The notes below the pieces were generated by a model. It did not search any database and was not told where the DNA came from. It was given only the letters and a program-made list of their open reading frames with translations. Below, in pieces: positions 7,048 through 61,950 of a stretch of 64,000 bases of DNA. The translations under genes were made by a program, and so were the position numbers. The DNA is from Alphaproteobacteria bacterium (GTDB taxonomy: Bacteria > Pseudomonadota > Alphaproteobacteria > Bin95). The stretch covers positions 288,001 through 352,000 of the forward strand of contig OZ219788.1 in NCBI GenBank assembly GCA_964291285.2. Direction: 5' to 3'. Each line of letters starts with the position of its first letter. Within the stretch, counting starts at the first letter, position 1.

Positions 7048-7078
7048 GCACCTCCGTCACCCCACTTCGTCCCGCTAG

Positions 7079-9092: not shown

Positions 9093-9123
9093 ATAGCGAC
9101 ACAGTCGCGCCGGCGGGCGGCTG

Positions 9124-15752: not shown

Positions 15753-15889
15753 TACCCCACCCCCCACCGCAATACAGGCTCGGGCCGAAGAACGGCGCAG
15801 CAAAACAACTGCGCCCGTCGAGGACGAAAACACTGGACCGCGGCATCAAGAAACCACCATGACGGCGGCCAGAAACGTCTGGGGTTCCC

Positions 15890-16301
15890 CAAAACCTTCA
15901 TTGTCGGGCGGGTCGGCCACCCCGTATCATGAAAACAGGTGCCGGCCGCGCGGGCGGGACTTCGGGCTTTTACGGGGTTGCCTACCGGTCAGGGTCCGCA
16001 AGACGGGCGCCGCAGATGGCGAGTATCGGACGCCTCGGGAGCAGTGCTTTGGCGGGGAGGTTTTTTTTGCGCCCGATCCCCAACAATTTTCACGGCAAAA
16101 CCTTCATTGTCGGGCGGGTCGGCCACCCCGTATCATGAAAACAGGTGCCGGCCGCGCGGGCGGGACTTCGGGCTTTTACGGGGTTGCCTACCGGTCAGGG
16201 TCCGCAAGACGGGCGCCGCAGATGGCGAGTATCGGACGCCTCGGGAGCAGTGCTTTGGCGGGGAGGTTTTTTTTGCGCCCGATCCCCAACAATTTTCACG
16301 G
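15890..16301. repeat. 206-bp tandem duplication (2 copies)
   Basis: 15890-16095 is repeated at 16096-16301, apparently exactly. Confidence 0.95.
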
Positions 16302-16655
16302 CAAACACCGGCAGCCAGACCGACATCACTCAGACAAAGCCCGCGGTTCGACTAAAAATTTTCCCTGCGGAACCCCCTGATCGGCGATCAGGGGATTCCT
16401 CCGGGAGGCGTGTGCGCTGTTTGGAAGTTCTTTCTGAGCAAGGCATTGCGGAGGGTCTGGATTTTTCTTACCCCGTCAGGATGGCTGATTTCGGGGGTTT
16501 TTGCGGTTTGGAGGGAAAGGTTTTGTGGATTTCCACCCCATGGCCGTGCGCGGGCTGGTTTTCGGGCGCGTCGCGTTGAGGCGCGGGACTGAGTAGAAGG
16601 TGTCGCCATCGGGCCTGCGGCCCTTGTTCCATCCACCGGTGCTGGTTGGGAGAAC

Positions 16656-19224: not shown

Positions 19225-22200
19225 TCATCCCATGCTCAGTCCGCCGCCTTCGGAGCGGTCGACGCGCTGCTCCTGGGTCGTTTCTTGCACCTGCCGGGGC
19301 GTCTGAACCGGCTTCGGCGGGTTCAGGATACGTGCGCGGCGGGCCTCGTCGCTCCATTCGGCGCGGAAGCATCCGCGCGCGGTGACCGCGGCGACCGTCC
19401 TCTCGATATCGCTGCCCGGCTCGGGCGCGTCCGGGCCCGAGGCCTCGACGGTTTCGAGCCGGAGCCCTGGGCTGCCGAAGCGGATATCGTCCATGCGCGC
19501 CGTCACCTTCGCCTCGACCGTGAGGACCCGGCCTTCGCCGGCGTCCTCGGTCCAGGCGATGCGGTCGCCCGGCACCGGTTCGCCGCAGGCCAGCCGGCAG
19601 AGCCATGACGGCACAGACCGGTGCCGGGCCAGTTCCAGTTCCCGGAGCCTCTCGTCGGACCAGGCGGCGCGGGCGCAGCCGATGCTGACGAGGGATTCGG
19701 CCGTTCGGGGGATGACCGCCCCGAGCCCGGGCGGTTCGTCCGGACCCGCGACATCCAGCATCCGCACCTGCAGCAGGTCGTCCTCGTGCATGCCGCCGGC
19801 CGCTCCTGCGGAGACGACGATGATTTCCATCATGTCGTCGCCGACGCGGACCCGGTCGCCGGGGACCAGCGGTTCCTCCCCGGTCCAGCGGAGCCAGTGT
19901 GCGGGTTCCGGCACGCGCGCAAGCCGCTCCCTCTCGCGGCGGATGGCCTCCGCCACGGCGGGCCGGCCGGCAGCCTCACGCTGCGCGGCCGGATCGGCCG
20001 ATTGTCCGAACCCGCCGGCGAGCCCGGCGACCGACGCCAGGTCCTCGTTCCACCGGCGGTCGCGGGCGAGCCACTCCCCGGCCCTCCGGCGGGCCGGCTC
20101 CGGCAGCGCCTCCAGCTCCTTCGCGTACATGGTGACCCGCGCATAACCTTCCGCATGGAGCGCCAGCGTGTCGTCCCGGACGGCGAGCCGCTCGACCCGG
20201 TCCGCGAGCGACATGAAGGCGTCGCCCGCGTCTCGCAGCCGCACGGCCTCGAGCCCGGCCAGCACCTCCCGCACCCGGTCCCGGAGGCGGGGCATGACCT
20301 TCAGGCGGGAGGCGGCCCTGGCCTCGGCCGCGCCGGCCTCCGCCTCGCCCAGCAGCCTCCGGCCGGCGGCTCGGATTTCCCCGGAGCCCTCCCGCCATGC
20401 CGCCATGTCCCCGAGCGCGAAGGGCGCCATCCCGGCCTCGCGGGCCCTCTCCTCCAGACCCTCCCGCCGGCGCTCATGCTCTTCGCCTGCCTTCAGGAAC
20501 GACATGACCGGTTCGGTCTCCGCCTTTGCGCGGGCATCGAGGTCGAACACCCGGTCCACGGCGCGCCGCACCTCGGGCTCAAGAGACGCCTCGCCCCTGA
20601 GTTCCTCCGCCCGGTCGCGGAGCCCGGCCCAGGAAGGCAGGTCGACGGGGTCGGAGCCGGACTCGCGGCGTTGCCGGCCCACCGTCCTGACAAGCGCCGC
20701 GAACCTTGCCGAGCGGCGTCGCAGCGCCGCCTCCGCAAGCCTGTCGACCGCCTCGCGAACCCGCGCGCGCTCGGCCCCGACGCGCGCAAGGCGGATGCGG
20801 AGCGGATCGCCGAGCTTCGCTCCCGGTCCCTCGCCGAGCATTCCGAGGCCCTGTTGGCGAAGCCTCGCCGCCCGCTCGTCCCAGGGGTCCGGTTCCGCAG
20901 CACCTCCGGGGCCGGCATCGAACAGAAGACCGTCGCAGTCCAGCAGGAACGTCTCGATGCCGAGCCCGGCCCTCCTGTCTTCGGGCGTCGGCGGCGTTCC
21001 GGAAGCGGCCCTGCGTTCCGCGTCGGCCGCGCCCCAGGCCTCGACCGCCGGACGCACCGCCTGCGGTACCTCCCGGCCCCGGAGCCGCCCCGCCCATTTC
21101 GCCAGCGCTTCGGCGCCGGCCGTTTCGCGGGGGGCGACGCCCGCTGCCCGCGCGCCGGCCTCGTGCCGCGCCGCAGCCTCGCGGAACCGCTCCGCCTCGT
21201 CGAGCTCCCGGCCCCGCACCAGGCGCCGGAGCGCGGCGCCGATCCTGGCGGCGATGCCCTGGCCGCTGCCCTCCCGGAGTTCCTGTCCCGCATCGGCGAG
21301 CGTCCTGCCCTCCGCCAGCCAGGCCGCGTGCTCGGGAAGGTCGTCCATCGGCCGCCCGCGCTTCGCCGCCGCCCGTTTCAGCAGCGGCCAGTCGCGGCCG
21401 TGCCTCTCCGCCCGGCGCAGGAAAGCGAACCCCTGCCGGCGCTCCGCAATGGCCTGCGCGTCCCTGCTGTGGACCTCCTCCACGAACGCCCGCAGGTCCG
21501 CCGGAAGCGCCATGTCCTCCGCCAGCATCGCCGTGCCGGTCACGATACGGGCATAGCCCTCCGTGCGGACAAGGTCGCTGCCCTGCGTTTCAGCCCGGGC
21601 AACGAGTTCCCGCCAGTCCGCCTCCAGCCCGCGCAACATGGCAAGCGCCGCGGCGGGCGGCGGGTCCCCGTTCTCGCCCACCGCCTCCAGCGCCGTCATG
21701 CGCGAGCCGTCATTCGCCTCCAGCACCTCCTCCAGCCGCTCGCGATCGTTCGTCACCAGCACGAACCGGTCCCGGGCCCGGCTCGCCTCCACATGGAGGC
21801 CCGCCTGGCCGGCGAGCGCCCCGTGCCCCGTGTCGAGCACGCCGATCGCGCCGTCGCTTGTCATGCCCTGCGCCGCATGCAGGGTCGTGCTCCAGGCATG
21901 GTCGATATGGCGGAGTTGCGGGTCGGTGCGCGCCAGCGACAGGGTCCTGCCGTCTCCCAGATCGAACCTCACCCGGCGCGACCCGATCTCCCGCACCACC
22001 GCACCGCCGCCGTTCACAAGCCCGCGCCGCTCGTCGTTCATCGTCCAGCGGATGCGGTCGCCCGCCCGGATGCGGATGCGCGCCGTCTCGTAGAGCCCGA
22101 ACCGGTAGCGCACCCAGCTGTCGCCGGGGCGGATGCGCACCGTCCGCCCCGTCGGGTGCTCCAGGAAGACGAACTCTCCCTCCGCGCGCATCACCCGGCA

Positions 22201-24405
22201 GGCGTCGCCCTTCTCCACCCGCAGCGGCGCCACGCGCGAGTGGAACAGCACGATGTCGCCCGGCTCGTGGTTGCGCAGGTCCGCGCGCTGCGCCGCCGTC
22301 AGGTGGCGGTTCGCATAGCGTTCGAGTTCCAGCTCGCGCCCGTGCAGCACGCCCTCGCGCGCAAGCCCGTCCCGCACGACCCGGTGGATCTCCGCCCGGA
22401 TGAAATGCGTCGGCGCCAGGATCGCCGTCCGCGCCCGGTCCTCCGGGTCGAGCGCCAGCCAGAGCCGGGCCGCCTCCGCGCCCAACTCCTGCTGCGGCGC
22501 CTCGTGGACATGTTCGAGCTCCCGAAGCGCCTCGCGGGGACGGCCCTCCTTCAGATGCTCGACCGCAGCCTTCAAGGCCGGGTCGCGCTGGCGCAGGACC
22601 TCCTCCATCTCCGCCGTCGCCACGCCCGCCTCCTGCAGCGCCCGGAACGGCTCGCCCGCCCGCACGGCCCGCAGCTGCCGCCGGTCGCCCACCAGCACCA
22701 GCCGCGCGACGCGGAACCGCGCCGCGATCCGCATCAGCAACTCCATCTCCGCGGTCGAGACCATCGAGGCCTCGTCCACCACCAGCACCGCGCCCTCGTG
22801 GTCCTGCCGGTCCCGGGCCACGCGCGCGGCATTGCCCAGATCGCCGTGGCGGGTGAGGAACCATTGCAGCGGCCGGGACCGGACGCCGGTCTCCTCCCGC
22901 AGAACCCGCGCGGCGGCTGCCGAGGGCGCCAGCAGGACCGCCCTGCGTCCGCCCAGCAGCCCCAGCGCCTCCTTCAGCATCGTCGTCTTGCCGGTGCCGG
23001 CCGCGCCCTGCACCGCCACGATGCCGTCTTGCGACAGCAGGATGGTGCGCACCGCCTCCTGCTGCCCTTCGGTCAGCGCCGTTTCGGCCAATCGGCACGA
23101 GACGGCCGTCTCCTCCGCCAGCGGTTGCGAGGCGCCCAGCGCCCGGCGCTTCATGGCCATGATCCCGCGCTCCAGGCCGAGCGCCTCCGAGGTCACGAAC
23201 GAGCGCCCGCCCCGGAGCTGCGCTTCCACGAGGTGGCCGTCCCCGATCAGCCCCGCCAACGCCGCGTCGATGTCTCCCAGCCCGTGCCGGCCCGGCGCAT
23301 GGCCGAGCGCGATCGCCCTGATCTCGCGCTCCCGGATCACCGGGGCCCGCTCCGCCAGATGCTCCACCGCGCGCCAGGTCACCTCCCGCGCGCTCAGCCC
23401 CGGCGGCTCGGGCTGCAGCTCCTCCGCTGTCCGCACATAGGGCCGGCCCGCCTTGCGCGCCGTCTTCCGCGACGCGGTCGTCGTCCGCCGGAGCCCGGGC
23501 CTGGCGATGCTGCGGTCGCGGGAGAGCCCGAGCTCCTCGGCGCGCGTCTTCCACTCCGCCCGCAGCTCGTCGACGTCCCTGTCCGCCTTCTTCTTCCGGG
23601 TGATCAGCGCCGCCTGCTGCGTCAGCGCCGCGCTCCAGGGCAGGCCGTGCTTGTCCAGCCACGCCAGAATCTCCCGGCGCCGCGACGAGAACGCGTCCAC
23701 GAACTCCCGCCCGTAGCCCGCGATCTCGAACCCCGGCACGCCGCCGATCATCGTCGCCTCGATCGCGAACCCGAGCGCCAGCAGCCGCCGCGCCAGTTCC
23801 TGGCGGTAGACCGCCCCGATCAGCCGCACGTTGCGCCGGATTTCCGTCGGCTCGACGCTCCGCCACGCGCCCGACCGGTCGCGCGTCATGTTGGCGATGA
23901 TGCAGTGCGTGTGAAGCTGCGGGTCCTGGTCCCGGCTCGTCAGGTGACGGAACCCGGCCGCCACCAGTCCGTTCGCCGCCACGCGCGGACGCTGCCGGGT
24001 CACGGGATCGTACGACCGCGTCTGCAGCAGCTCCCTCTCCAGCCAGTCCAGGGTCGCCTTCACGGCCGCGTCGTGCGCGCCCAGCACCCGCCGGTCCCCA
24101 TGGAGCAGCGCCTCCAGCGAGACCGTCTTCGGCGCCGACAGCGTCAGGTCGAAGCCCGGCCGGTGCTGGTGCTCCCCGTCCCGCACCCGCCCGAGCCGGA
24201 TGTCCGTGCCGGGCACATGGCCCGACAGGATGCGCCCGAACGCCCGCGGCGAGACATGCCTGGCCATGCCGAGCGCCGCCGCTCCGGCCCCGTGCCAGAA
24301 GCTCGCCCGGCGCTGGCGCGGGTCGTTCTTCGCGTAGTAACCCTCCCTGGAGAAATACCCGACCGTCATCGTGGTCGAGGTGAGGTCCGTCAGGCCCGCA
24401 ACCAT
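19225..24405 (-). CDS. mobF: MobF/TrwC-family relaxase-helicase with a long C-terminal extension (1726 aa)
   Basis: YFSREGYY, DLTLSAPKTVS, HLTSRDQDPQLHTH, FSSRR; helicase GAAGTGKT, VDEASM, GDRRQL, HAAQGMT. Confidence 0.92.
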   Translation of the reverse strand: MVAGLTDLTSTTMTVGYFSREGYYAKNDPRQRRASFWHGAGAAALGMARHVSPRAFGRILSGHVPGTDIRLGRVRDGEHQHRPGFDLTLSAPKTVSLEALLHGDRRVLGAHDAAVKATLDWLERELLQTRSYDPVTRQRPRVAANGLVAAGFRHLTSRDQDPQLHTHCIIANMTRDRSGAWRSVEPTEIRRNVRLIGAVYRQELARRLLALGFAIEATMIGGVPGFEIAGYGREFVDAFSSRRREILAWLDKHGLPWSAALTQQAALITRKKKADRDVDELRAEWKTRAEELGLSRDRSIARPGLRRTTTASRKTARKAGRPYVRTAEELQPEPPGLSAREVTWRAVEHLAERAPVIREREIRAIALGHAPGRHGLGDIDAALAGLIGDGHLVEAQLRGGRSFVTSEALGLERGIMAMKRRALGASQPLAEETAVSCRLAETALTEGQQEAVRTILLSQDGIVAVQGAAGTGKTTMLKEALGLLGGRRAVLLAPSAAAARVLREETGVRSRPLQWFLTRHGDLGNAARVARDRQDHEGAVLVVDEASMVSTAEMELLMRIAARFRVARLVLVGDRRQLRAVRAGEPFRALQEAGVATAEMEEVLRQRDPALKAAVEHLKEGRPREALRELEHVHEAPQQELGAEAARLWLALDPEDRARTAILAPTHFIRAEIHRVVRDGLAREGVLHGRELELERYANRHLTAAQRADLRNHEPGDIVLFHSRVAPLRVEKGDACRVMRAEGEFVFLEHPTGRTVRIRPGDSWVRYRFGLYETARIRIRAGDRIRWTMNDERRGLVNGGGAVVREIGSRRVRFDLGDGRTLSLARTDPQLRHIDHAWSTTLHAAQGMTSDGAIGVLDTGHGALAGQAGLHVEASRARDRFVLVTNDRERLEEVLEANDGSRMTALEAVGENGDPPPAAALAMLRGLEADWRELVARAETQGSDLVRTEGYARIVTGTAMLAEDMALPADLRAFVEEVHSRDAQAIAERRQGFAFLRRAERHGRDWPLLKRAAAKRGRPMDDLPEHAAWLAEGRTLADAGQELREGSGQGIAARIGAALRRLVRGRELDEAERFREAAARHEAGARAAGVAPRETAGAEALAKWAGRLRGREVPQAVRPAVEAWGAADAERRAASGTPPTPEDRRAGLGIETFLLDCDGLLFDAGPGGAAEPDPWDERAARLRQQGLGMLGEGPGAKLGDPLRIRLARVGAERARVREAVDRLAEAALRRRSARFAALVRTVGRQRRESGSDPVDLPSWAGLRDRAEELRGEASLEPEVRRAVDRVFDLDARAKAETEPVMSFLKAGEEHERRREGLEERAREAGMAPFALGDMAAWREGSGEIRAAGRRLLGEAEAGAAEARAASRLKVMPRLRDRVREVLAGLEAVRLRDAGDAFMSLADRVERLAVRDDTLALHAEGYARVTMYAKELEALPEPARRRAGEWLARDRRWNEDLASVAGLAGGFGQSADPAAQREAAGRPAVAEAIRRERERLARVPEPAHWLRWTGEEPLVPGDRVRVGDDMMEIIVVSAGAAGGMHEDDLLQVRMLDVAGPDEPPGLGAVIPRTAESLVSIGCARAAWSDERLRELELARHRSVPSWLCRLACGEPVPGDRIAWTEDAGEGRVLTVEAKVTARMDDIRFGSPGLRLETVEASGPDAPEPGSDIERTVAAVTARGCFRAEWSDEARRARILNPPKPVQTPRQVQETTQEQRVDRSEGGGLSMG

Positions 24406-25740: not shown

Positions 25741-25784
25741 CATCATCGCCATACGAGATTCACGCCCCGTGGGCGTCTGTTAGA

Positions 25785-27691
25785 CCCAACTTGAACAGTC
25801 GGTGTCGATTTTTGCCGGGCGCGGTTTCGCCAAGTTGTTGAAATGATTGGATAGTGAGGTGATGATTGGCGCGGGTTGAGAAAAATGTAGTGAAACATTT
25901 TTGCTGATTTGGCCTTGTTTTCTTGATTGGTCGATATCGAAGACATACAACGCGGTCATGTTCGTGCGCGAAACGACCGCCCGGGGCCACCGCTATCTCT
26001 ACCTCGTGGAGAGCGTGCGCGAGGGCAAGCGGGTGCGCCAGCGCACGATCCGCGCGCTCGGCCGCAAGGACGTGTTGCAGGCGAGCGGGGAGCTGGACCG
26101 TCTGATCGCGTCCCTGGCGCGCCATTCGGAGCGGTCCGTGGTGCTGGAGGACATGGAGGCGGGCGCGCTGGCCTGCGTGCGGGTCGGCGGTCCGCTGCTG
26201 TTCGGTCGGCTGTGGGATCGGCTGGGCGTGGGCGCTGTCGTGAAGGAGCTTCTGGACGGTCGCGGCTTCGGGTTCGCCGTCGAGCGGGCGGTGTTTGTGA
26301 GCGTTCTGCACCGTCTGTTCGTGTCGGGTTCGGACCGGTCCTGCGAGAAGTGGATGGCCGACTACGCGATCGAGGGGATCGAGGGGTTGCGGCTTCATCA
26401 GCTGTATCGGGCGATGGCCTGGCTCGGGGAGGAGCTGGAGGCGCCGGCGGAAGGCGCGCTTGCGCCGCGCTGCGTGAAGGACGGGATCGAGGAGCGTCTG
26501 TTCGAGCACAGGCGGGACCTGTTCACCGACCTGTCTGTGGTGTTCATGGACACCACGACGCTGTCGTTCCACGGCGCGGGCGGCGAGACGCTGGGCGCGC
26601 ACGGCTACTCGAAGGACCATCGCCCGGACTTGCGCCAGATGGTTCTGGCGGTGGTGCTGGACGGCGAGGGCCGGCCTGTGTGCACGGAGATGCTGCCGGG
26701 CAACACGGCCGACACCAGGGTGCTGCTGCCGATCGTGGACCGTCTTCGGTCACGCTTCGGGATCGGTCGTGTGTGCGTGGTGGCGGACCGGGGGATGATC
26801 TCGGCGGCGACGATAGCGGCGCTGGAAGAGCGGGGGCTGGACTACATCCTGGGCGCGCGCGAGCGGCGCACGAAGGTGGTCCGCGAGGTGGTGCTGAAGG
26901 ACACGAAGCCCTTTGTGCCGCTGCTCCTCAAGCGTCCGCGCGGCGAGACGCAGCTGTTCGTGAAGGAAGTCACGGTGGGCGGCGCGCGCTACATCGTGTG
27001 CCGCAACGAGGCGGAGGCACAGAAGGACCGCGCCGACCGGCAGGCCGTGGTGGACGGCCTCCAGCGCCGCCTTGCGGACGGCGAGAAAGCGCTGATCGGC
27101 AACAGCGCCTACCGGCGTTATCTGCGCCGCACGGGCGCGGGCAAGGCGTTCGAGATCGACGCCGGCAAGCTCGCCGAGGAGGCCCGCTTCGACGGCATCT
27201 TCGTGCTGCGCACCAACGCCGGCATGACGCCGCTCAATGCCGTGCTCCGCTACCGGGAGCTGCTCACGGTGGAAGACCTGTTCCGCCGGGCGAAGGCCCA
27301 GTTGCGCACCCGCCCGATCTACCACTCCTGCGACGCCGCGATCCGCGGCCACGTCTTCTGCTCCTTCCTCGCGCTCGTCCTCCAGAAGGAACTGGCCGAC
27401 CGCTGCGCCGCCGCCAACGTCAACGTCGAATGGGACGACCTGATCCGCGATCTCGACCGCCTGCAAGAGGCCACCATCGAGAAGGACGGCAAGCGCATCA
27501 CCACCCGCACCCATGTCGAGGGCCAGGTCGGAAAGGTCTTCCAGGCCGTCGGCATCGCGCTGCCGCCGAACTGGCGCGAACACAAAGCCTGACCGTCCCC
27601 AAAATCAACGAAATGTAGTGGGTACACCCGGCGATGCCGGTGTAACTCCCTGTTCTATCGAATACTTTTAATCGTCACTGTTGAAGTTGGG
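25785..27691 (+). mobile_element. IS1634 type B copy 2, 1907 bp (transposase 25958-27592)
   Basis: Same TIRs and protein as copy 1; TSD TTAGA (25780-25784 / 27692-27696). Confidence 0.95.
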
Positions 27692-28172
27692 TTAGACGGA
27701 TATTCCGGGGCTTGACGCGGATGAGTCGGATGTCGTCGCCGACAAGCGCGCCCTGGATCGGCTGTCGAAGTCGGCGCGCGTCTATGGCGTCAACGAAGCG
27801 ATGGGGCCGGACCACGATATTCTGGAAGGCTTTTGAGAAAGGGAGGCACGCTCGTCGCTTCCGGTCAGCAGAGATCCTTTTCTGCGGCACGCCTGAATTG
27901 GACCGGTGGCGAAGTTCACCACGGGGCTGTGCACGCGGGATATCGACATTTCGGACCGGCACCCCTACGCTACCAAAGTGAAGGCGCGGGATTCTCGGGT
28001 GTATTAACCAAGATGCTGACGTCGCACATAGCGCTGTAGGAAGACAATCCTAGCGGATACCGGCTTTATAGATCTCGACATACTGCTCACACGAATTCGG
28101 CATACGCAGTCGAAGGTTTATTTCCTAGACGCTGTCAAAGCCTACAAGGCAGGTGCGCTTCGTGCCTCACTA

Positions 28173-29047
28173 GGCCCTGTGGACGTATTGACTCAGGAGC
28201 GTGTTCAGGGATTCCCGTGCGAGGATTTGTCTGAATCATGAGGCGTCGGCGATTCGGGGGTTTCTTTGATGTCGACGAAGATGACGAATGGAGACTGGGA
28301 GGTTGCGCTGGAGGTTTTCCGGCTTTGCCTTCCGAGGCGGGGTGCGAAGGCGAAGGACGACCGTCTGTTTCTGGAGGCGCTGCACTTCTTTGCGGTTCAC
28401 AACATCACCTGGCGGGCGCTGCCGGAGCGGTTCGGGCACTGGAATACGGTATGGCGGCGTTTTCACCGTCTGAGCCGTTCAGGGGTGTTCGAGGACTTTT
28501 TCGCCACGCTGGCGGATTTGAGCAGCACGGCGCACCTGGTTCAGATGTTCGATTCGACCGTGACCCGCGCGCATGTATCGGCGGCCGGCGCAAAAGGGGG
28601 CAGCAGGGTCAGGCGCTTGGACGCTCGCGGGGCGGTTTCAGCACCAAGATCCACCTGAAGACCGATTTCGACGGCCTGCCGATCGCCTTCGACCTGACCG
28701 GCGGCGAGGCTGCCGACAGTCCGCATTTCGAGACCCTGATGGACATCGGCCCCGATGTCCGGCCCCGCGCCATCGTCGCCGACAAGGGCTATGACAGCGC
28801 CGGAAACCGCCAACTCGCCCGGAAAAGAGGCGCCCTGACCGTCATTCCCTACCGGAAGAACATCAAAAACAGGCCAAAGCGCTTCGCAAGCGCGCTCTAC
28901 AGAGGACGGGCGCGCATCGAACAGGCCGTCGGCAAGCTCAAACGCTTCAAACGCATCGCCCTGCGCTGCGAAAAGACCGCCACAAACTTCAGCTCTTTCG
29001 TCGCACTCGCCGCTGCCTTCATCTTGATCAAATCCGTCCACAGGGCC
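28173..29047 (+). mobile_element. IS5-family (IS427-like) element; two overlapping frames, 28269-28658 and one ending at 29050
   Basis: TIR GGCCCTGTGGACG, TA flanks; WRALPERFG, GRSRGGFSTK, ADKGYD; probable frameshift at AAAAGGGGG (28592-28600). Confidence 0.9.
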
Positions 29048-29097
29048 TAAAAGCTAATCTTCAAAAGCGATTCCCCTGGAGCGCAAGCTTCTCGGAC

Positions 29098-35348: not shown

Positions 35349-36881
35349 ATGGCAGCGCTTGCGGAGATGGACCTCGACACGCTGACGCCGGAACAGGCGG
35401 CGGCTGCGAGGCAGGCGCTTGCGGCTCTGGAGACGCTTCGCACCGGGAACAGGACGCTGACGGAAGAGAAGGTCTGCCTCGCGGGTGAGAATGAGGCGCT
35501 GTCGGCGCGCATCCGCCGTCTGGAGCATCTGAACCTTGAACTGGTCCGCCTTGTGTATGGCAAGAGGTCGGAGAAGCTGTCGGCGGACGAGCGCCAGCTG
35601 GCGTTCGAGGAGCTGGAGGGCGCGTCTGCGGAGGGGGAAGCACAGGCCGCGGCCGACAATCCGTCGCCGCCGCGCGCACCGAGGAAGCCCCGCCCGGAGC
35701 GCAATCCCGGCCATTTGCCGGAGCACCTGGAACGGATCGAGCAGGTGATCGAGCCGGAGAGCACGCTGTGCCCCTGCGGCTGCGGGGAGATGGTGAAGAT
35801 CGGCGAGGACCGCGCCGAGAGGCTCGACATCGTGCCGGCGCAGTTGCGGGTAATCGTCACGGTGCGCCCGAAATACGCCTGCCGCAAGTGCGAGGAAGGC
35901 GTTACCCAGGCGCCGGCGCCGGCGCGGCTGATCGAGGGCGGGCTGCCGACCGAAGGCGCCATCGCCCATGTCCTGATCTCCAAATATGCCGACCACCTTC
36001 CGCTGTACCGCCAGGCCCGGATCCATGCCCGCTCGGGGCTGCAACTGGACCGCTCGACGCTGGCCGGCTGGGTCGGCAAGGCGGCGTTCCACCTCGGGCC
36101 CGTGTATGAGCGCCTGAAGACGGCGCTGAAGATGTCGAGCACCCTGGGTCTGGACGAAACCACGGTTCGGGTTCTCGACCCGGGCCGGGGCAAGACCAAA
36201 ACCGGCTATCTGTGGACCATGGTGCGCGACCAGCGGGCCTGGTCCGGGGCGGACCCGCCGGGGGTGGTCTATGAGTATGCGCCCGGGCGCAGCGGCAAGC
36301 ATGGCGAGAAGCTGCTCGAGGGCTTCCAGGGATCGGTGCAGGTCGACGGCTATGCCGGCCACAACCGGCTCGGCCGGGCGGATCGCCCGGGCGGGGCGCT
36401 GACGCTCTGTGCCTGTTGGGCACACGCCAGGCGCGGCCTTGAGACGGTGTTCGACAGCAGCCGCTCGCCGATCGCGAAGGCCGGACTGGAGCGCATCGCG
36501 CAGCTCTACAGGATCGAGGACAGGATCCGGGGCGAGGAGCCGGCGACGCGCCAGTTCGTCCGCTGGACCGGGTCCGCGCCGCTGGTGAACGCCTTCGGGG
36601 TGTGGCTCGACGAGCAGCGCTCGCGCGTCTCGCCCAAGTCCCGCCTCGGCGAGAAGTTGACCTACATCGCCAACCAGTGGGACGGGCTGCTGGTCTTCCT
36701 GCACGACGGGCGCGTCGAGATGGACAGCAACTTCGTCGAAAATCGGATCCGGCCGATCAAGCTCACCGCGAAAAATGCGTTGTTCGCCGGCCACGACGAG
36801 GGCGCGCGCTCCTGGGGCCGCATCGGCTCGCTCATCGAGACGGCGAAGATGAACGGCGTCGAGCCCTACGCCTGGCTCAAG
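35349..36881 (+). pseudogene. tnpC: IS66 transposase TnpC; the last 28 codons are displaced to 60619-60705
   Basis: CPCGC, KYADHLPLYRQ, DET, DGYAG, CWAHARR, DSNFVEN; cut at AWLK by IS1634. Confidence 0.92.
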
Positions 36882-38408
36882 CCCAACTTCAACAGTGACG
36901 ATTAAAAGTATTCGATAGAACAGGGAGTTACACCGGCATCGCCGGGTGTACCCACTACATTTCGTTGATTTTGGGGACGGTCAGGCTTTGTGTTCGCGCC
37001 AGTTCGGCGGCAGCGCGATGCCGACGGCCTGGAAGACCTTTCCGACCTGGCCCTCGACATGGGTGCGGGTGGTGATGCGCTTGCCGTCCTTCTCGATGGT
37101 GGCCTCTTGCAGGCGGTCGAGATCGCGGATCAGGTCGTCCCATTCGACGTTGACGTTGGCGGCGGCGCAGCGGTCGGCCAGTTCCTTCTGGAGGACGAGC
37201 GCGAGGAAGGAGCAGAAGACGTGGCCGCGGATCGCGGCGTCGCAGGAGTGGTAGATCGGGCGGGTGCGCAACTGGGCCTTCGCCCGGCGGAACAGGTCTT
37301 CCACCGTGAGCAGCTCCCGGTAGCGGAGCACGGCATTGAGCGGCGTCATGCCGGCGTTGGTGCGCAGCACGAAGATGCCGTCGAAGCGGGCCTCCTCGGC
37401 GAGCTTGCCGGCGTCGATCTCGAACGCCTTGCCCGCGCCCGTGCGGCGCAGATAACGCCGGTAGGCGCTGTTGCCGATCAGCGCTTTCTCGCCGTCCGCA
37501 AGGCGGCGCTGGAGGCCGTCCACCACGGCCTGCCGGTCGGCGCGGTCCTTCTGTGCCTCCGCCTCGTTGCGGCACACGATGTAGCGCGCGCCGCCCACCG
37601 TGACTTCCTTCACGAACAGCTGCGTCTCGCCGCGCGGACGCTTGAGGAGCAGCGGCACAAAGGGCTTCGTGTCCTTCAGCACCACCTCGCGGACCACCTT
37701 CGTGCGCCGCTCGCGCGCGCCCAGGATGTAGTCCAGCCCCCGCTCTTCCAGCGCCGCTATCGTCGCCGCCGAGATCATCCCCCGGTCCGCCACCACGCAC
37801 ACACGACCGATCCCGAAGCGTGACCGAAGACGGTCCACGATCGGCAGCAGCACCCTGGTGTCGGCCGTGTTGCCCGGCAGCATCTCCGTGCACACAGGCC
37901 GGCCCTCGCCGTCCAGCACCACCGCCAGAACCATCTGGCGCAAGTCCGGGCGATGGTCCTTCGAGTAGCCGTGCGCGCCCAGCGTCTCGCCGCCCGCGCC
38001 GTGGAACGACAGCGTCGTGGTGTCCATGAACACCACAGACAGGTCGGTGAACAGGTCCCGCCTGTGCTCGAACAGACGCTCCTCGATCCCGTCCTTCACG
38101 CAGCGCGGCGCAAGCGCGCCTTCCGCCGGCGCCTCCAGCTCCTCCCCGAGCCAGGCCATCGCCCGATACAGCTGATGAAGCCGCAGCCCCTCGATCCCCT
38201 CGATCGCGTAGTCGGCCATCCACTTCTCGCACGACCGGTCCGAACCCGACACGAACAGACGGTGCAGAACGCTCACGAACACCGCGCGCCGCACCTGTCG
38301 GTTCTAACCTGTTGATACAGCGTCTGTTTTTCCTCGTGCAACAGCGGGTCAGGGGTGCAACTGCAACCGCAATGTGCCCCGCCTGCAAATGGATGCAGGA
38401 GGAAATCC

Positions 38409-54260: not shown

Positions 54261-57200
54261 ATGGTGGCGACGGTCTTCAACCTGACCTCGGCTTCCTCGA
54301 CGGTGCACTATTTCCGGCGCGAGGGGCACGGGCTCGGGCCGAACCTGCCGGCGAACGACGACGAGGCGGGCGACTACTACGCGCGCAAGGATGACGAGCA
54401 CCGCAAGGCGAGCCGGTGGCGGGGCAGCGGGGCGGCGGCGCTGGGGCTGACGGGCCATGTCGAGCCGGTGGAGTTCCGGCGTGTGCTGCAGGGATACGTT
54501 CCCGGCACGGACATCCGGCTGGGGCGGCTGCGCGACGGCGAACACGAGCACCGCCCGGGTGTGGACATCACGTTTTCGGCGCCGAAGTCGGTGTCGCTCG
54601 AGGCGCTGCTCGGCGGTGCGGGTTCGGCCAGGGCGATGCGGGCGCACGATGCGGCGGTGCGGGCGACGCTGGACTACATCGAGACACGGCTCTTGCGAAC
54701 CCGGCGCTGGAGCCGCGAGGAGCGGCGCTCGGTGCAGGTGAATGCGCCCATGCTGGTGGCGGCGACCTTCCGGCATATCACGAGCCGCAACAACGACCCG
54801 CAGCTTCACACCCATTGCGTGGTCGCGAACATGACGCGCGACGGCGGGCAGTGGCGGAGTGCGGAGACCGGTCTGCTGCGCCGGTCGGAGAAGCTGGTCG
54901 GGGCCTTCTACCGCAACGAGCTGGCGCACCGTCTGCGCCGTGAGGGTTTCGCGCTGCGTCCGTCGATGATCGGGCGGGTTCCGGGGTTCGAGATCTCGGG
55001 CTGGCCGCGTGCGGTGCTGGAGGCGTTCTCGAGCCGGCGGCAACAGATACTGGCCTACATCCGGGAGAAGGGCTGGCGCTACGATGCGCACACCGCGCAG
55101 GCGGCGACGCTGGCGACGCGGGCGCGCAAGAACGAGCCGCGCCGGGCGGAGCTTGAGGCGCTGTGGCGGGCGTTTGCCGAGGAAAATGGCCTCGCCAGGC
55201 GGACGCTGCGGAAGATCGGGGTGCGGCATGCGGCGCCGCCGACGGCGCTGGAGATCGCCTGGCGGGCTCTTGAGCAGCTGGAGGAGCGGGCGAGCGTCTT
55301 CCCGGCGCGGGACGCGCTGGCGCTGGCGCTGGCGCTGGCGCATTCGCCCGGCCTCTACCGGCTTGAGGAGATCGAGGGGGCCTTTGCGGAGCTTCGACGG
55401 GACAAGCATTTGCTGCCGGCGATCCGGCGCGGGGCGGGCGAGGCCTGGACGACGGCGCGGGCGGTCAACGCCGAACGCGAGGTGCGCGAGCGCACGATCG
55501 CCAATATCGGTGCTGTCAGGGCGCTCTCCGAAGCTCCCGTCCCCGGAGAGGCGCTGGAGGGCCTGACCGGGGGCCAGCGCGAGGCGGTGCGGCTGATCCT
55601 GGAGAGCCGGGACCGGGCGGTCGGGGTGCAGGGCCATGCGGGCACCGGCAAGACGGTGATGCTGCGCCGGGCCGTGTCGTGCATGGGAGAAAGGCGGGTG
55701 CTGGGACTGGCGCCGTCGGCCTCGGCGGCGCGGACGCTGTCGCGCGAAACGGGCCTCGCCTGCCGGACGCTGCAATGGTTCCTGACGCGCTGCCAGGAGG
55801 TGTCCGACGGGGTGGCGGACGCAAGGACGCTCGCCGCGCTGAGAGAGCGCCATGGCGGCGCGGTGGTGGTGGTGGTGGACGAGATGTCGCTGGCGGGCAC
55901 GGCGCAGGCGCGCGCGCTGCTGCGGATTGCCGAGCGCCTCGACATTGCCCGGCTTGTGCTTGTGGGCGACAGCCGGCAGCTGCGGGGCGTGCAGGCGGGC
56001 CAGCCCTTCCGGCAGATGCAGCAGGCGGGCTTGGGCGTCGCGGAGATGGACGAGGTTCGCCGGCAGCAGGACCCGGACCTGCTGGCCGCCGTCCAGGACA
56101 TGATCGAGGGCGAGCCGGGCGCGGCGCTGGAGCGTCTCGGAGGCAACCTGCGGGAACTGCCGGCGGAGGAGATCGCGGGCATGGCGGCCGCGCTCTGGCT
56201 GCGGCTTTCGCCCGGGGCGCGGGCGGGTACGGCGTTGCTGGTTCCGACGCGCGCGCTCAGGGCCGAGGTCGAGGAGGCGGTGCGCGAAGGCCTCGAAGCC
56301 GAGGGCGCCCTGCACGGGTCCTCCATCGGGATCGAGACGCTCGTGCCCCTCAACCTCACGCGCGCGGAGACGGGGTCGTGCGGCTGATACCGAGCTTCTC
56401 CCACGGCCCCTCAACCTCACGCGCGCGGAGACGGGCGACGTGCGCAACTGGCGCGAGGGCGACATCGCGCTCTTCAACCGCGAGCGGAAGAACTACCGCA
56501 TCCGCAAGGACGACGCCTGCACGGTGATGGAGGTGGAGGAGGACCGGGTGATCCTCGCCCATCCCGATGGCCGGCCGCGCCACCTGAAGCCCGGCGGCGA
56601 CCTGCGCTACCGGCTGGACCTGTTCGAGGCGAAGACGCTGCGGATCAGGGAGGGCGAGCAACTGCGCTGGACGCGCAACGACAGGGAGCGCGGCCTCGTC
56701 AACGGCGACCGTGTGGAGGTGGCCGCCATGGGAACCGGAGCGCTCCGCATGCGCCTCTCCGACGGGCGGGAGATGCGATTCGCGCGCGACGACCCGCAGC
56801 TTCGTCATCTTGCATACGCCTATGCGTCCACCGTGCATGCGGCGCAGGGGCAGACGCACGACCGTGTGGTCGCGGTGCTGGACACAGGCGCGGGGCCGCT
56901 GGTGAACCAGCAGACGCTCTACGTGCAGCTCAGCCGCGCGCGGGAAGAGGCGCTGGTGCTGACCGACAACCGCGAGCAGCTTGTGGAGACGCTGGAGGCG
57001 AACACGGGCGAGCGGCTGACGGCGCTGGAAGCCATCGGCGAGACGGAGACGATGAAGGCGCCGGCGAAGCGGACGGTCTCCGGGGAGGCGGCGTCTGCGT
57101 TCCTTGACGGCCTGCGCGCGGAGCGGGAGCGCCGCGCCGAAGCGGAGGCGGCCTTGCGCCGGCTGGCGGAGGCCGAAGCAGCGCTTGCCGCAGCCCGCGC

Positions 57201-58569
57201 CCATGCGCAGGAAGCCGGATACACCTTCGCCGCCCTGCCGGCGGTCGATCCGGACGACGGACAGACCCTTCAGGACCGTCTCGCGGCGGCCAAAATTGTG
57301 CAGGAAGCGGCGCATGATGTCTCGGCTGCCGCCCATGCGGTGCTGGAGGCGGCGAAGGCGGCGGACCGCGTCCCGCCGCTCGACGATGCCGCGATGGAGG
57401 CGGCGAAGACCGGCGAAACCGAGGCAGCGGCGCGCCTTGTGGCATACCGGTCGCTGGAGACGGCCTTGACGGCGGCGAACAGGGCGTCCGGACGGCTGGC
57501 GCCCGCAGGCGCGCTCCGCGACAAGGATATCGACGGGGCTTCGATGCAGCGCCATGGCGCCGCCGCCCGGGAGGCGGCCGCCGCCTTCGACGCCCTCGCG
57601 CAAAAGGCGCGGGCAGCGGGCGAGGCGGCGCTGGCCCGGCGCGCGCGGGAGAGGGCTTCGGACCTCGGGCTGGCGGCGCTGCACTGGAGCTACAGGCTGG
57701 CGGGCCACCGGTTCGCGGTGGCGCGGCTGGCCGAGCGGGACATGGCGCCGCCGCACACGGTCGGGGACGTGCGGCGCTGGCAGGACCTGCGCCAGCGCCA
57801 GGCGGACGCGCGGACCGGGGCGGCAGCCGCGGCCGAGGCGGTCGCGCCGGAGAGCGCGGACGCGGCGGCCCGGTGGCGTGAACAGGCGGCGGACTACCGC
57901 AAGCAGGCCGGCGCGATACGCGGCTCGCTGGCGGAACTGGAGGGGCTGAAGACGCTGGTGCGGACCGCGGAAGCCGCGTCGGACGACGCGGCGGCATGGA
58001 GCGCGGCGGCGGGCGCGGCGGAGACGATCCGGAAAGGCTCCGGCCGGGGTCTGGAGGACGAGGCCGCGCGCGTGCGTGACGAGGAGGCGCGCCGCCGACA
58101 GGAAGGGCGCGAGGCGGCGCGGGCACGTTTCGAGACCCTGAGCTCGGAATGGGACGCGTTCGAGAGGAAGGTCAGGGCCGGGGGGCGGGTCGGCTTTGCG
58201 GACAAGCGCAGCCGGCAATATGTCGACCGCGCGCGGCGGCTGGAGGCGGACCCCGATCTCGATGCGGAAGCGAAGGAGACGCTCGCGGCGTTCCTGCACG
58301 AGCACGATGTCGTGCGCCCGAAGGTCGTCCGGCGCTGCCGGGAGCTGTTCGCGCAGTGGAACGCGGTCCGCGCAACGGCAAGGGCCCGCGGCGTCGGCCG
58401 GTTCATCCCTCCGGAGAGCGCGGAGGTCGTTGCGGGGATGCGCAAGCTCGCCGCCGGGAGCCCGGAGCACCTGACGCGCAGACAGAAGGAGACATTCGAG
58501 ACGATCACCGAGGAATACGCCCTCCATGTCGAGCGGCAGCGGACATGGGTGATGACCATGAGGCCGTGA
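54261..58569 (+). pseudogene. mobF: MobF relaxase-helicase frameshifted by a 61-bp insertion (1415 aa if restored)
   Basis: GDYY, DITFSAPKSVS, HITSRNNDPQLHTH, GHAGTGKT, HAAQGQT; deleting 61 bp restores LNLTRAETGDVRNW, matching the 19225-24405 paralog. Confidence 0.92.
56346..56435 (-). CRISPR. Single repeat-spacer-repeat unit: putative ectopic (neo-)CRISPR of type I-E geometry
   Basis: Exact 29-bp repeats at 56346-56374 and 56407-56435 around a 32-bp spacer; the repeat matches the E. coli I-E repeat at 15/29 positions without gaps; no cas genes in the window. Confidence 0.65.
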
Positions 58570-59770: not shown

Positions 59771-60783
59771 CACACCTCTCCGGCCCCGGGACACAGGCAT
59801 GACCCGTGCCTTTTTACCGTGAACCACAGGAACGATACATCAATGTTGTATCCATGTTCATACGGTATGACCTTCTCCTGTCCATTCCTTGCCTTGCTTT
59901 CAGACAGGCACAGGCTCAAGTCCCTACAAAATTCCCAATCCGTTACCGAAGTGCCTCACTCTTCCAAATCTCCTACAAGAATGATCATGACACAAGGTGC
60001 TTGCATCTACCTCCATGATCTCCTATCATGAGCCACCTTGCGAGGAAGTCAGTGCTTCGGTCAACAGGGTGTTCCTATAGCCAAGAATTCGACTATCTTT
60101 GGCACACCGCGCGCTCCACCGCGAACCCGAAGCCGCGACCGTCCAGAAGCTCCTTCACGACAGCGCCCACGCCCAGCCGATCCCACAGCCGACCGAACAG
60201 CAGCGGACCGCCGACCCGCACGCAGGCCAGCGCGCCCGCCTCCATGTCCTCCAGCACCACGGACCGCTCCGAATGGCGCGCCAGGGACGCGATCAGACGG
60301 TCCAGCTCCCCGCTCGCCTGCAACACGTCCTTGCGGCCGAGCGCGCGGATCGTGCGCTGGCGCACCCGCTTGCCCTCGCGCACGCTCTCCACGAGGTAGA
60401 GATAGCGGTGGCCCCGGGCGGTCGTTTGGCGCACGAACATGACCGCGTTGTATGTCTTCGATATCGACCAATCAAGAAAACAAGGCCAAATCAGCAAAAA
60501 TGTTTCACTACATTTTTCTCAACCCGCGCCAATCATCACCCCACTATCCAATCATTTCAACAACTTGGCGAAACCGCGCCCGGCAAAAATCGACACCGAC
60601 TGTTCAAGTTGGGTCAAGATCACGCTGGAGAGAATCGCCGCCGGCCATCCAAACAGCCGCATCGACGAACTCCTGCCCTGGAGCTTCAAGCCCCCGTCAA
60701 GCTGAAAGCCGGGTGCCGCCGCCGCACCGCTTACCTTGGCGCGGGCAGAAGAGCTCTCCGGAGTGGAAGAACCGGACCACTAA

Positions 60784-61950
60784 TACCAGCGGGCATAGTT
60801 CAGAACCCATTGGCCCATTTTCGGGTTCCGATGGAGGCGATGCGTTCTGGTTGTGAGACGAGATTGTTCCAGGCCTGGCAGCAGTGATCGAGTATGTCGT
60901 CGTAGTTCTGGAAGACGCGGTTCGAGAGCCAATTTTCGCGCATGAACTGCCAGACATTCTCGACGGGATTGAGCTCGGGGGACCGGGGCGGGAGCGGCAT
61001 CAGGGTTATGTTGTCGGGGACTTTGAGGGCCGGGGATGTGTGCCATCCGGCCCGGTCGAGCATGACGAGGGCATGGGCTCCGGGTTCAACGGTGAGGGCG
61101 ACCTCGGCGAGGTGGGCGTTGAGTGCCTCCGTGTTGGCGTGGGGCATGACGAGGCCGGCGGCCTTGCCCTTCTGCGGGCATATGGCGCCGAAGATGTAGG
61201 CCGAGATGGTTCTCTGGTCCTTGGGCGCTGACGGTCGGGTGCCGCGTTTAGCCCATCGCCGGGTGATCTTGTTCTTCTGCCCGACGCGCGCCTCGTCCTG
61301 CCACCAGACTTCGACCTCGACGCCGTCGCCGAGTGCAGCGCGGATCTCCTTCAGGCGGTCGGGGAAGTTTTTTTGAACCCTGCCAGCGCGGCTTCGTCCT
61401 GGGCATAGTGGCGCGGGCGCGCAGAGAGCTTGGCGTAGCCCATCCGGCGCAACTCCCGCCCGACCGTCGTCTCCGCCAACGAGATGCCGAACTGCTCGCT
61501 GAGCCATGCCGCCAGGTCGCAGCGCCGCCACCGCACCACGCCGTGGATCGCCGGGTCCGGACCGCTCTCCACAACCGCCGCCAGCGCCGCGCGCTGCTCC
61601 CCGTTCAACTTGCGCGGCGGACCTGAGGCCTTGCGATCCTTCAATCCCTCCGGGCCTTCCGCGTTGAAGCGAAGAACCCAGTCCCGGATGATCTGCAAGC
61701 CCACCCCCGCAAAACGCGCCGCATCCGAACGACGGTAACCGTCGTAAATCACCGCAAGCGCAAGAAGGCGACGGTTCTGCGAACCATCCCGGCTCCGCTG
61801 CGCCAAGCCGCGCAACTGCGCCGCATCAAAATCCTCCCTCAAGGGGATTGCTGCCCTCATAACGACCCTCCAATCGCAGAATCGCTATTGAGTCAGAACT
61901 CGATAACCTTGGGAATCCCCTCAATGAGTCTCAACCCTCAACCGCTGGTA
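60784..61950 (-). mobile_element. IS630-family element, copy 2, intact (1167 bp)
   Basis: TA(A) flanks; orfA 61351-61860 and the DDE frame ending at 60800 joined at an A7 slippery run (61368-61374). Confidence 0.93.

What the first reader, a model, noticed from the sequence alone, without database searches (positions are those of the whole stretch)
56346..56435. Natural neo-CRISPR: apparent off-target Cas1-Cas2 spacer insertion that broke the relaxase
Seen: a net 61-bp insertion made of a 29-bp duplication of relaxase sequence plus 32 foreign bp (a 30+31 parse is also possible). On -, the repeat CCCGTCTCCGCGCGCGTGAGGTTGAGGGG aligns without gaps to the E. coli I-E repeat GTGTTCCCCGCGCCAGCGGGGATAAACCG at 15/29, mostly across the palindrome and the final G. 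The spacer CCGTGGGAGAAGCTCGGTATCAGCCGCACGAC translates to PWEKLGISRT, resembling the KPWE..GISR.T C-terminal motif of plasmid replicases. Known: I-E units are 61 bp with an AAG PAM whose G ends the repeat, and off-target integration at repeat-like sites has been shown experimentally in E. coli. An AAG PAM would encode exactly the Lys before PWE. Inference: a plasmid-derived spacer was integrated ectopically, immobilising the defence element and seeding a proto-array.
Basis: partly seen in the sequence, partly recalled or inferred. Interest (0 to 1): 0.92.

Follow-up and report, generated by a model that had tools for sequence, protein, structure and literature searches.

The report
Stray CRISPR spacer broke a relaxase
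A 61-base insertion that breaks a plasmid-transfer (relaxase) gene has the exact anatomy of a CRISPR spacer pasted into the wrong place by the host's own Cas1-Cas2 enzyme, and the same genome carries three more such misplaced insertions, one of which has grown into a small three-spacer array.

Summary
Window 56345-56374 and 56406-56435 are exact 30-nt direct copies around 31 foreign nt, a net 61 bp. The insertion frameshifts a TrwC-type relaxase-helicase.

The interpretation, ectopic type I-E Cas1-Cas2 integration, is strongly supported:
- The host has I-E arrays with a 61-bp period (28-nt duplicated repeat plus a 33-nt insert) and intact cas1 and cas2.
- A genome-wide scan finds the same anatomy at three more loci. 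One is a 4-repeat/3-spacer array in the 96-98% identical relaxase paralogue on C1. One breaks a chromosomal 2-hydroxyacid dehydrogenase gene.
- Empty sites are seen in the paralogue and in relatives for three of the four loci.
- The duplicated targets mimic the repeat's palindromic core in register.
- The relaxase spacer encodes PWEKLGISRTT, the conserved C-terminal motif of ColE2-type plasmid replication genes. A Lys codon (AAR) sits at the PAM position in 9 of 9 homologues.

"Immobilised a defence element" is not shown. Cascade is broken here: cse1 is split beside IS copies.

This is a natural, multi-locus case of a phenomenon known from the laboratory.

The parts
56345..56374 (-). Copy A of the duplicated relaxase target (30 nt exact). 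In the mechanistic parse the 28-nt duplicated segment is 56347-56374; read on the - strand it is the leader-distal 'repeat'.
56375..56407 (-). 33-nt inserted prespacer. On the - strand it is G plus a 32-nt spacer encoding PWEKLGISRTT. Only 56375-56405 (31 nt) is unambiguously foreign; the last 2 nt coincide with native sequence.
56406..56435 (-). Copy B of the duplicated target (30 nt exact; 28-nt parse 56408-56435).
54261..56387 (+). N-terminal part of the broken TrwC relaxase-helicase (TrwC relaxase + AAA_30 domains). It ends at a TGA inside the insert.
56440..58569 (+). C-terminal part of the same gene (UvrD_C_2 helicase domain), displaced by +1 frame by the 61-bp insertion.
57628..57655 (.). 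Single, unduplicated copy of the 28-mer that on contig C1 (833753-833963) is present four times around three 33-nt inserts. This is the empty site for the paralogue's ectopic array.

Best explanation
The host's type I-E Cas1-Cas2 integrase put a plasmid-derived prespacer into a repeat-like site inside a TrwC relaxase gene instead of into the CRISPR array. As at a true repeat, two staggered attacks 28 bp apart joined a 33-nt prespacer (PAM-derived G plus 32 nt). Gap filling then duplicated the 28-bp target, giving a net 61 bp, a +1 frameshift and a stop codon. The apparent 30-nt duplication is 28 nt plus two insert bases that happen to equal the native bases. Shown: the anatomy, the empty sites, the matching host system, the repeat-like targets, recurrence at four loci, and the plasmid-gene origin of the spacer. 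Inferred: that this host's Cas1-Cas2 did it, the order of attacks, and the PAM of the true protospacer. The ectopic repeats probably make no usable crRNA.
For: (1) Same unit as the host array. The C3 arrays have a 61-bp period. Repeat base 29 varies (28 G, 1 A of 29 repeats), so 28 nt are duplicated and 33 inserted. Three other ectopic loci show exactly 28+33 (C1, three units; C3:1772442) or 28+32 (C3:1520497).
(2) Machinery. Cas2 (PF09707, full length) and Cas1 are present. Cas1 (317 aa) aligns end to end with E. coli Cas1 structures at E 6e-133; the residues I recall as catalytic (Glu in GIEG, His in HTGKP, Asp in YDxAD) are conserved in that alignment.
(3) Insertions, not ancestral. Empty sites in 8 of 8 loci for the window site. 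For the C1 array, empty sites in the window itself and in 6 relatives. For C3:1772442, empty sites in 13 relatives.
(4) Targets mimic the repeat in register. Matches to repeat positions 6-21 (IR1-loop-IR2) are 12/16, 12/16 and 11/16; genome background P is 5.4e-4 for at least 12 and 3.5e-3 for at least 11, best of two orientations. All 4 targets match IR1 (CCCCGC at positions 6-11) at 5/6, background 0.033 each. In E. coli these inverted repeats are the only essential repeat elements and anchor the rulers that set the 28-bp distance (PMC5039180, passages).
(5) Six different inserts, none with a second copy in the genome, so this is not a mobile element family.
(6) The window spacer matches plasmid genes. 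pTRACA45 orf2, next to a PF03090 replicase: 27/32 nt, AAG 5'. A Neisseria 4.4-kb contig: 28/32. A 4-kb metagenome contig: 26/32 nt with 11/11 amino acids, all six differences at third codon positions.
(7) The parse that puts G first in the insert is also the one with the best repeat match, 15/28.
(8) Of 12 same-genus relatives searched, only 1 has a close I-E Cas1. Relatives showing empty sites, including the closest at the C3 locus, showed none.
Against: No exact protospacer was found for any of the six inserts, so a PAM was never read directly. Searches: plasmids and phages for the window insert and the C1 array; genome, metagenome and viral scans; 37 family genomes for one insert. Six of the nine homologues carry AAA, not AAG. 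In the best-fitting orientation only 3 of 5 orientable inserts start with G, against 28 of 29 in the true arrays. The C3:1520497 unit is 60 bp, resembles the repeat poorly overall (10/28) and has no empty-site control. I saw no leader-like sequence or properly placed IHF-like site beside the window site by eye; this was not tested formally. About 21,000 genome sites match the repeat core as well as the window target does (at least 11/16), so resemblance alone does not explain why these four were hit. Cas1-Cas2 activity is inferred from sequence only.
Confidence: 0.92

Rival explanations
1. Another insertion mechanism with a long staggered cut, such as an unknown transposase or casposase-like footprint, or repair-templated filler DNA, produced a 28-30-bp target duplication around 31-33 nt.
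For: The window insert's two ends are weakly inverse-complementary (6 of 8 nt by eye on the sequence). The genome is extremely IS-rich. One locus has a 60-bp unit and a poor overall repeat match.
Against: The six inserts are all different and unique in the genome. The unit length equals the host I-E period, and the 28/33 split equals that of the true arrays. Three serial units at one site are what array growth gives, not a footprint. The targets mimic the repeat core in register. No spacing other than 60-61 shows such clean duplications, apart from families at 62, 54 and 66; the 54 and 66 families I did not inspect.
Confidence: 0.03
2. Assembly or sequencing artefact, such as a chimeric or mis-polished stretch.
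For: The relaxase has a 96-98% identical paralogue, a situation in which assemblers can err.
Against: Four loci on three contigs share one precise architecture. The inserts match nothing else in the assembly, so no template for a chimera exists. One insert encodes a recognisable foreign plasmid motif in frame. The assembly has only 5 contigs and no N.
Confidence: 0.02
3. The units arose in a different former host of the relaxase-bearing element, through that host's I-E system, and arrived by transfer. On this reading the resident Cas1-Cas2 is not responsible for the window event.
For: Two of the four loci lie in one mobile-element gene family and a third lies in a mobile-looking region (DndB-like and primase zinc-ribbon ORFs). 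I-E systems with similar repeats occur on plasmids of several alphaproteobacterial genera.
Against: One locus breaks a chromosomal 2-hydroxyacid dehydrogenase whose orthologue is uninterrupted in 13 relatives, one of them 95-98% identical, so ectopic integration did happen in this lineage. The targets fit the resident repeat. None of the relatives' relaxase copies carries either insertion.
Confidence: 0.03

Closest known systems
Off-target ('neo-CRISPR') spacer integration by E. coli type I-E Cas1-Cas2 (Nivala, Shipman & Church, Nat Microbiol 2018). The paper is not held; I know it only through passages in citing papers.
   Same: Spacer-sized DNA is integrated at non-CRISPR genomic sites, the flanking target is duplicated, and such sites can spawn new arrays. 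The integrase family is the same: the host Cas1 aligns full-length with E. coli Cas1.
   Different: That work used over-produced Cas1-Cas2 and supplied oligonucleotides in the laboratory. According to a citing preprint, it offered only circumstantial evidence for two other species. Here the events are fixed in a natural genome at four loci, with empty-site controls, disrupted genes, a three-spacer ectopic array, and a host whose cse1 is split.
Canonical type I-E adaptation in E. coli: a 28-bp repeat, with IR1/IR2 motifs anchoring two molecular rulers (Goren et al. 2016, PMC5039180; passages read).
   Same: A 28-bp duplication plus a 33-nt insert gives a 61-bp unit, and the insert-derived base becomes repeat position 29. 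IR1-like and IR2-like motifs sit at the same distance from the junction.
   Different: There is no leader next to the sites, and the targets are coding sequence. The repeats do not form the Cas6e hairpin: fold z-scores are -0.4 to +1.9, against -3.7 for the true repeat.
In vitro integration by P. furiosus Cas1-Cas2 at non-CRISPR plasmid sites that resemble repeats (PMC6698737; abstract and passages read).
   Same: Paired attacks one repeat length apart at sites that share positionally conserved bases with the repeat, independent of a leader.
   Different: A different CRISPR type and a 30-bp spacing; in vitro only.
Transposon or IS target-site duplications and excision footprints (general knowledge, recalled).
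   Same: A direct duplication of the target flanks inserted DNA.
   Different: The inserts are 32-33 nt, all different and non-repeated, with no transposase. The duplication is 28 bp and equals the CRISPR repeat length.

Membership tests
Ectopic type I-E Cas1-Cas2 spacer integration (neo-CRISPR) | Target duplication of one repeat length (28 bp) flanking one prespacer (33 nt), so that the unit equals the host array period | tested here: met
   Host period is 61 with a 28+33 split. The window unit is 61 (30+31 seen, compatible with 28+33). C1 has three units of 28+33, C3:1772442 has 28+33, and C3:1520497 has 28+32.
Ectopic type I-E Cas1-Cas2 spacer integration (neo-CRISPR) | The same genome encodes a matching, apparently intact Cas1 and Cas2 | tested here: met
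Ectopic type I-E Cas1-Cas2 spacer integration (neo-CRISPR) | An uninterrupted (empty) site exists in paralogues or relatives | tested here: met
   Window site: 8 of 8 loci. C1 site: the window plus 6 relatives. C3:1772442: 13 relatives. C3:1520497: no orthologue found.
Ectopic type I-E Cas1-Cas2 spacer integration (neo-CRISPR) | The target resembles the repeat at the elements Cas1-Cas2 reads (the inverted repeats), in register with the junctions | tested here: met
   Core 6-21 matches are 12/16, 12/16 and 11/16 (P 5.4e-4 and 3.5e-3). IR1 matches 5/6 at 4 of 4 sites (P 0.033 each). C3:1520497 matches IR1 only.
Ectopic type I-E Cas1-Cas2 spacer integration (neo-CRISPR) | The insert derives from foreign DNA next to the system's PAM | tested here: inconclusive
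   The window insert encodes a plasmid Rep-family motif, and 9 of 9 homologues have AAR 5' of it. The exact protospacer was not found for any of the 6 inserts.
Ectopic type I-E Cas1-Cas2 spacer integration (neo-CRISPR) | Integration at these sites by the purified or expressed integrase | not testable with these tools
   A bench assay is needed.
Functional CRISPR array | A repeat that folds into the Cas6e stem-loop, and a leader next to the first repeat | tested here: not met
   The true repeat folds at -15 kcal/mol (z -3.7). The ectopic repeats give z -0.4 to +1.9 in either orientation. No leader-like flank was seen by eye; this was not tested formally.
Transposable element or footprint | The same element sequence recurs at several sites | tested here: not met
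   Six inserts, all different, each unique in the genome.

The most novel reading that the evidence does not exclude
In this lineage Cas1-Cas2 has been uncoupled from interference, because cse1 is split beside IS copies and its 5' part lies on another contig. The integrase then works as a free-running integrase that writes foreign DNA into repeat-like sites. The double hit in one TrwC relaxase family (2 of 4 loci, in about 0.13% of the genome) would not be chance. It would reflect either a real target preference for conjugative-element DNA or selection for knocking out transfer functions. The three-spacer array inside the C1 relaxase would be a CRISPR array caught at birth.
Probability: 0.25. 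Interest if true: 0.9.

Novelty: new member of a known kind. Interest (0 to 1): 0.8.

Why it matters
Off-target spacer integration and the birth of new arrays have been shown with over-produced E. coli Cas1-Cas2. A citing preprint describes the evidence from natural genomes as circumstantial. In the held library only 1 paper uses the term 'neo-CRISPR'. A second search (51 papers, 15 listed) showed no natural multi-locus case in its listing. Both are limited searches, not proof of absence.

This genome supplies what a natural case needs:
- internal empty-site controls, because each relaxase paralogue is the control for the other;
- a resident integrase closely related to the E. coli enzyme;
- repeat-like targets in register;
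- serial growth to three spacers;
- visible costs, namely two broken genes, one of them chromosomal.

It makes two questions directly testable with natural sequences: what Cas1-Cas2 reads in a target when no leader is present, and how often adaptation acts as an insertional mutagen.

Tried and rejected
1. Local or chromosomal origin of the insert. No second copy was found in the window or the genome. A six-frame peptide search of the genome for PWEKLGISRTT gave only chance hits.

2. Exact protospacers.
- Plasmid and phage collections gave nothing significant for the C1 array. For the window insert they gave only the homologue pTRACA45 (E 0.02).
- The wobble pattern gave 0 hits in genome contigs, 0 in viral contigs and 1 in metagenome contigs.
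- The looser pattern gave 58 loci, of which 7 are true homologues. The other 51 include a non-coding motif in Acidobacteriota and Gemmatimonadota MAGs and a few unrelated hits.
- Five 30-nt insert stretches gave 0 hits in viral contigs.
- One insert, allowing up to 3 mismatches, gave 0 hits in 36 family genomes.
- The two C3 inserts were not sent to the plasmid or phage collections.

3. Reading the PAM from canonical spacers. The arrays hit only other I-E arrays on plasmids, plus one low-complexity 28-mer. There were no self-targets in the genome.

4. The type II-C-like system on C1 (36-nt repeat, period 65-66) was considered as the source and rejected because its unit size does not fit.

5. 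The 7-copy family with period 62 was considered as a fifth locus. No empty site exists for it, so it is left unexplained.

6. Leader or IHF-like flanks. By eye I saw only an oppositely oriented partial resemblance downstream of the window site. It was not tested and no weight is given to it.

7. Complex prediction, structure prediction and the protein atlas were not used, because no claim needed them.

Nivala et al. 2018 is not held, so its natural examples and off-target motif could not be compared.

Full report
WHAT IS THERE. Window 56345-56374 and 56406-56435 are exact 30-nt direct copies with 31 unrelated nt between them, a period of 61. The window is C4:288001-352000 of a 6.13-Mb, 68% GC, 5-contig genome. 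The unit lies in a TrwC-type relaxase-helicase. ORF 54261-56387 carries the TrwC relaxase and AAA_30 domains, and ORF 56440-58569 carries UvrD_C_2. The first ORF ends at a TGA inside the insert. The second is in frame with it only if 61 nt are discounted. So this insertion is the lesion that separates the two halves.

IT IS AN INSERTION OF FOREIGN DNA. A paralogue on contig C1, 96-98% identical, and seven relatives' copies all carry the site uninterrupted: 8 of 8 loci examined. The 31-mer has no other copy in the window or in the genome; the best other hit is 14 nt.

THE HOST HAS THE MATCHING MACHINERY.
- Contig C3 carries type I-E arrays with a period of exactly 61. There are 29 readable repeats, in one array split by an IS66-family element plus a degenerate remnant.
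- Repeat position 29 is G in 28 repeats and A in 1. As in E. coli, 28 nt are therefore duplicated and the 29th base comes in with a 33-nt insert.
- Next to the array lie cas2, cas1, cas6e, cas5e, cas7e and cse2.
- Cas1 (317 aa) aligns over its whole length with solved E. coli Cas1 structures (E 6e-133). The residues I recall as catalytic are conserved in the printed alignment.
- Interference looks broken. The 3' part of cse1 (profile positions 303-449) sits beside cse2 on C3 and abuts a DDE_Tnp_1 IS. The 5' part (positions 1-303) is on contig C2 beside a copy of the same IS. The only Cas3 HD match is elsewhere on C2.
- A second system on C1 is type II-C-like, with Cas9, a 36-nt repeat and a 65-66 period. 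It cannot give 61-bp units.

THE SAME ANATOMY RECURS. I scanned the whole genome for direct duplications at fixed spacing.

With exact runs of 24-36 nt, spacings 40-120, and tandem or low-complexity cases removed, 5 pairs remain: 1 at spacing 45, 1 at 60 and 3 at 61. My filter dropped C3:1772442 in that run.

With at least 25/28 identity and spacings 45-90, spacing 61 has 5 pairs in three loci. Spacing 60 has 2 (one low-complexity), spacing 62 has 7 (one repeated-element family), spacing 54 has 8 and spacing 66 has 4. The 54 and 66 families were not inspected. All other spacings have 0-1.

The loci are:
(i) the window site;
(ii) C1:833753-833963, inside the paralogous relaxase: four copies of a 28-mer (the last with one mismatch) around three different 33-nt inserts. 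The window at 57628-57655 holds the single-copy empty site, as do six relatives. The 183 nt are in frame but bring a stop codon;
(iii) C3:1772442, 28+33, which splits a D-2-hydroxyacid dehydrogenase gene into its catalytic and NAD-binding halves. Thirteen relatives have the empty site, with two alignment pieces overlapping by 28 nt; the closest is 95-98% identical;
(iv) C3:1520497, 28+32 (period 60), in an ORF with a primase zinc-ribbon near a DndB-like gene. No orthologue was found to serve as an empty site.

None of the six inserts has a second copy in the genome.

THE TARGETS LOOK LIKE THE REPEAT WHERE IT MATTERS. Each duplicated 28-mer was aligned to the repeat without shifting. Total identities are 14/28 (C1), 15/28 (C3:1772442), 15/28 (window, - strand, the parse that leaves G as the first insert base) and 10/28 (C3:1520497). 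The background P for at least 15, in the better of two orientations, is 0.0056.

The match is concentrated in positions 6-21, the IR1-loop-IR2 palindrome. The scores are 12/16, 12/16, 11/16 and 7/16, with P 5.4e-4 for at least 12 and 3.5e-3 for at least 11. All four sites match IR1 (positions 6-11) at 5/6, with P 0.033 each.

In E. coli the inverted repeats are the only essential repeat elements. Motifs in them anchor two rulers that place the second attack 16 and 8 nt downstream (PMC5039180, passages). About 21,000 genome sites match the core as well as the window target does (at least 11/16), so resemblance is necessary-looking but not sufficient.

WHERE THE WINDOW SPACER CAME FROM. On the - strand the insert reads G followed by a 32-mer that encodes PWEKLGISRTT with GC-rich third positions.
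- Plasmid collection: the best match is pTRACA45 (2,013 bp). Its orf2 lies immediately downstream of a PF03090 'Replicase' plus PriCT_1 gene. The match is 27/32 nt, the peptide is ...DKPWEKLGISRATWYRR..., and AAG precedes it.
- Genome contigs: a codon-wobble pattern returned 58 loci, of which 7 are true homologues. Three are Neisseria contigs of about 4.3 kb (best 28/32). The others are a Psychrobacter and a Xenorhabdus PF03090 Rep with the motif at the C-terminus, an Acetobacter ORF and a Synergistaceae ORF.
- Metagenome collection: one 4-kb contig encodes KPWEKLGISRTTWYRR. It matches 11/11 amino acids and 26/32 nt, and all six differences are at third codon positions.
- In all 9 homologues the codon before CCN-TGG is Lys: AAG in 3 and AAA in 6.

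The true, presumably high-GC, source was not found.

FUNCTIONAL STATUS. The true repeat folds into the expected 7-bp stem (-15 kcal/mol, z -3.7). The ectopic repeats do no better than shuffled sequence in either orientation. They are unlikely to be Cas6e substrates. Together with the broken cse1, this means the ectopic units probably confer no immunity. They are records and mutations, and at C1 a growing proto-array in the structural sense only.

OPEN POINTS.
- Orientation is settled for the window site (PAM-side G, best match) and is likely the same for C1 (IR1 5/6 against 2/6). It is ambiguous for C3:1772442.
- In those orientations 3 of 5 orientable inserts begin with G.
- Two of the four loci fall in one relaxase paralogue pair, about 7.7 kb of 6.1 Mb. 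These genes have only about twice the genome density of repeat-like sites. This is suggestive of a bias or of selection, but it is a post hoc observation and unexplained.
- Of 12 same-genus relatives searched, only 1 has a close I-E Cas1 (91% identity). This fits the insertions being private to this genome.
- I found no evidence that the surrounding region (type I restriction-modification genes, a SIR2 protein, an integrase fragment and several IS) was a mobile unit that this event immobilised.

LITERATURE SEEN.
- Nivala et al. 2018: not held. What I know of it comes from passages in 10.1101/148544, PMC7054753, PMC11788318, PMC6698737 and PMC6546382.
- Goren et al. 2016: passages.
- Searches.

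VERDICT. It is a natural, multi-locus, gene-breaking instance of off-target type I-E spacer integration. That makes it a new member of a known (laboratory-defined) kind, of high interest to people who study CRISPR adaptation.

Noticed in passing
G000 contig C1:833753-833963 (locus L012:2754-2964); empty site at window 57628-57655: A three-spacer ectopic array (four 28-nt copies, the last with one mismatch, around three different 33-nt inserts) inside the paralogous TrwC relaxase. The insertion is in frame but brings a stop codon.
   Followed up: yes
G000 contig C3:1772442-1772530 (L013:2443-2531): A 28+33 unit that splits a chromosomal D-2-hydroxyacid dehydrogenase gene. The empty site is present in 13 relatives.
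   Followed up: yes
G000 contig C3:1520497-1520584 (L014:2498-2585): A 28+32 unit (period 60) in an ORF with a primase zinc-ribbon near a DndB-like gene. It matches the repeat only at IR1, and no empty-site control was found.
   Followed up: partly
G000 C3:1398206-1398664 and C2:533987-534994; IS at C3:1399286-1401082 and C2:534996-537485: cse1 of the I-E operon is split at profile position 303 between two contigs, each half beside a copy of the same IS. The Cas3 HD domain is found only at C2:452861-453490. The adaptation genes are intact while Cascade is not.
   Followed up: partly
G000 C4:232177-232266 and six other copies (C4:41401, C1:140146, C1:787081, C2:375225, C2:1382985, C3:112310): A 7-copy repeated element containing a 28-nt direct repeat at period 62 around a 34-nt hairpin-bearing stretch. 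It matches the I-E repeat at 14/28 in one orientation (counted by hand). No empty variant was found. It could be transposase-binding repeats or an old ectopic unit that then multiplied.
   Followed up: partly
G000 C1:152886-158000 (L016:4886-10000): A second CRISPR-Cas system, type II-C-like: Cas9 (1046 aa), Cas1, Cas2 and ten 36-nt repeats at period 65-66.
   Followed up: partly
window 19225-24405 (-): An intact 1726-aa TrwC relaxase-helicase paralogue, about 71% identical in DNA to the broken one. The genome holds roughly ten TrwC-like copies.
   Followed up: no
window 7070-9100, 10360-12280, 13875-16370, 25780-27700, 28170-29050, 36880-38290, 60100-61950 and others: The window and the genome are packed with IS copies at 99-100% identity, with tens of copies of several families.
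   Followed up: no
loci L031-L088 (for example L034, L038, L051): Most of the 51 non-homologue hits to the wobble pattern share a conserved motif, GTGCCGTGGGAGAAGTTSGGCATC, with in-frame stops around it, in Acidobacteriota, Gemmatimonadota and other MAGs. It may be an unrecognised non-coding element.
   Followed up: no
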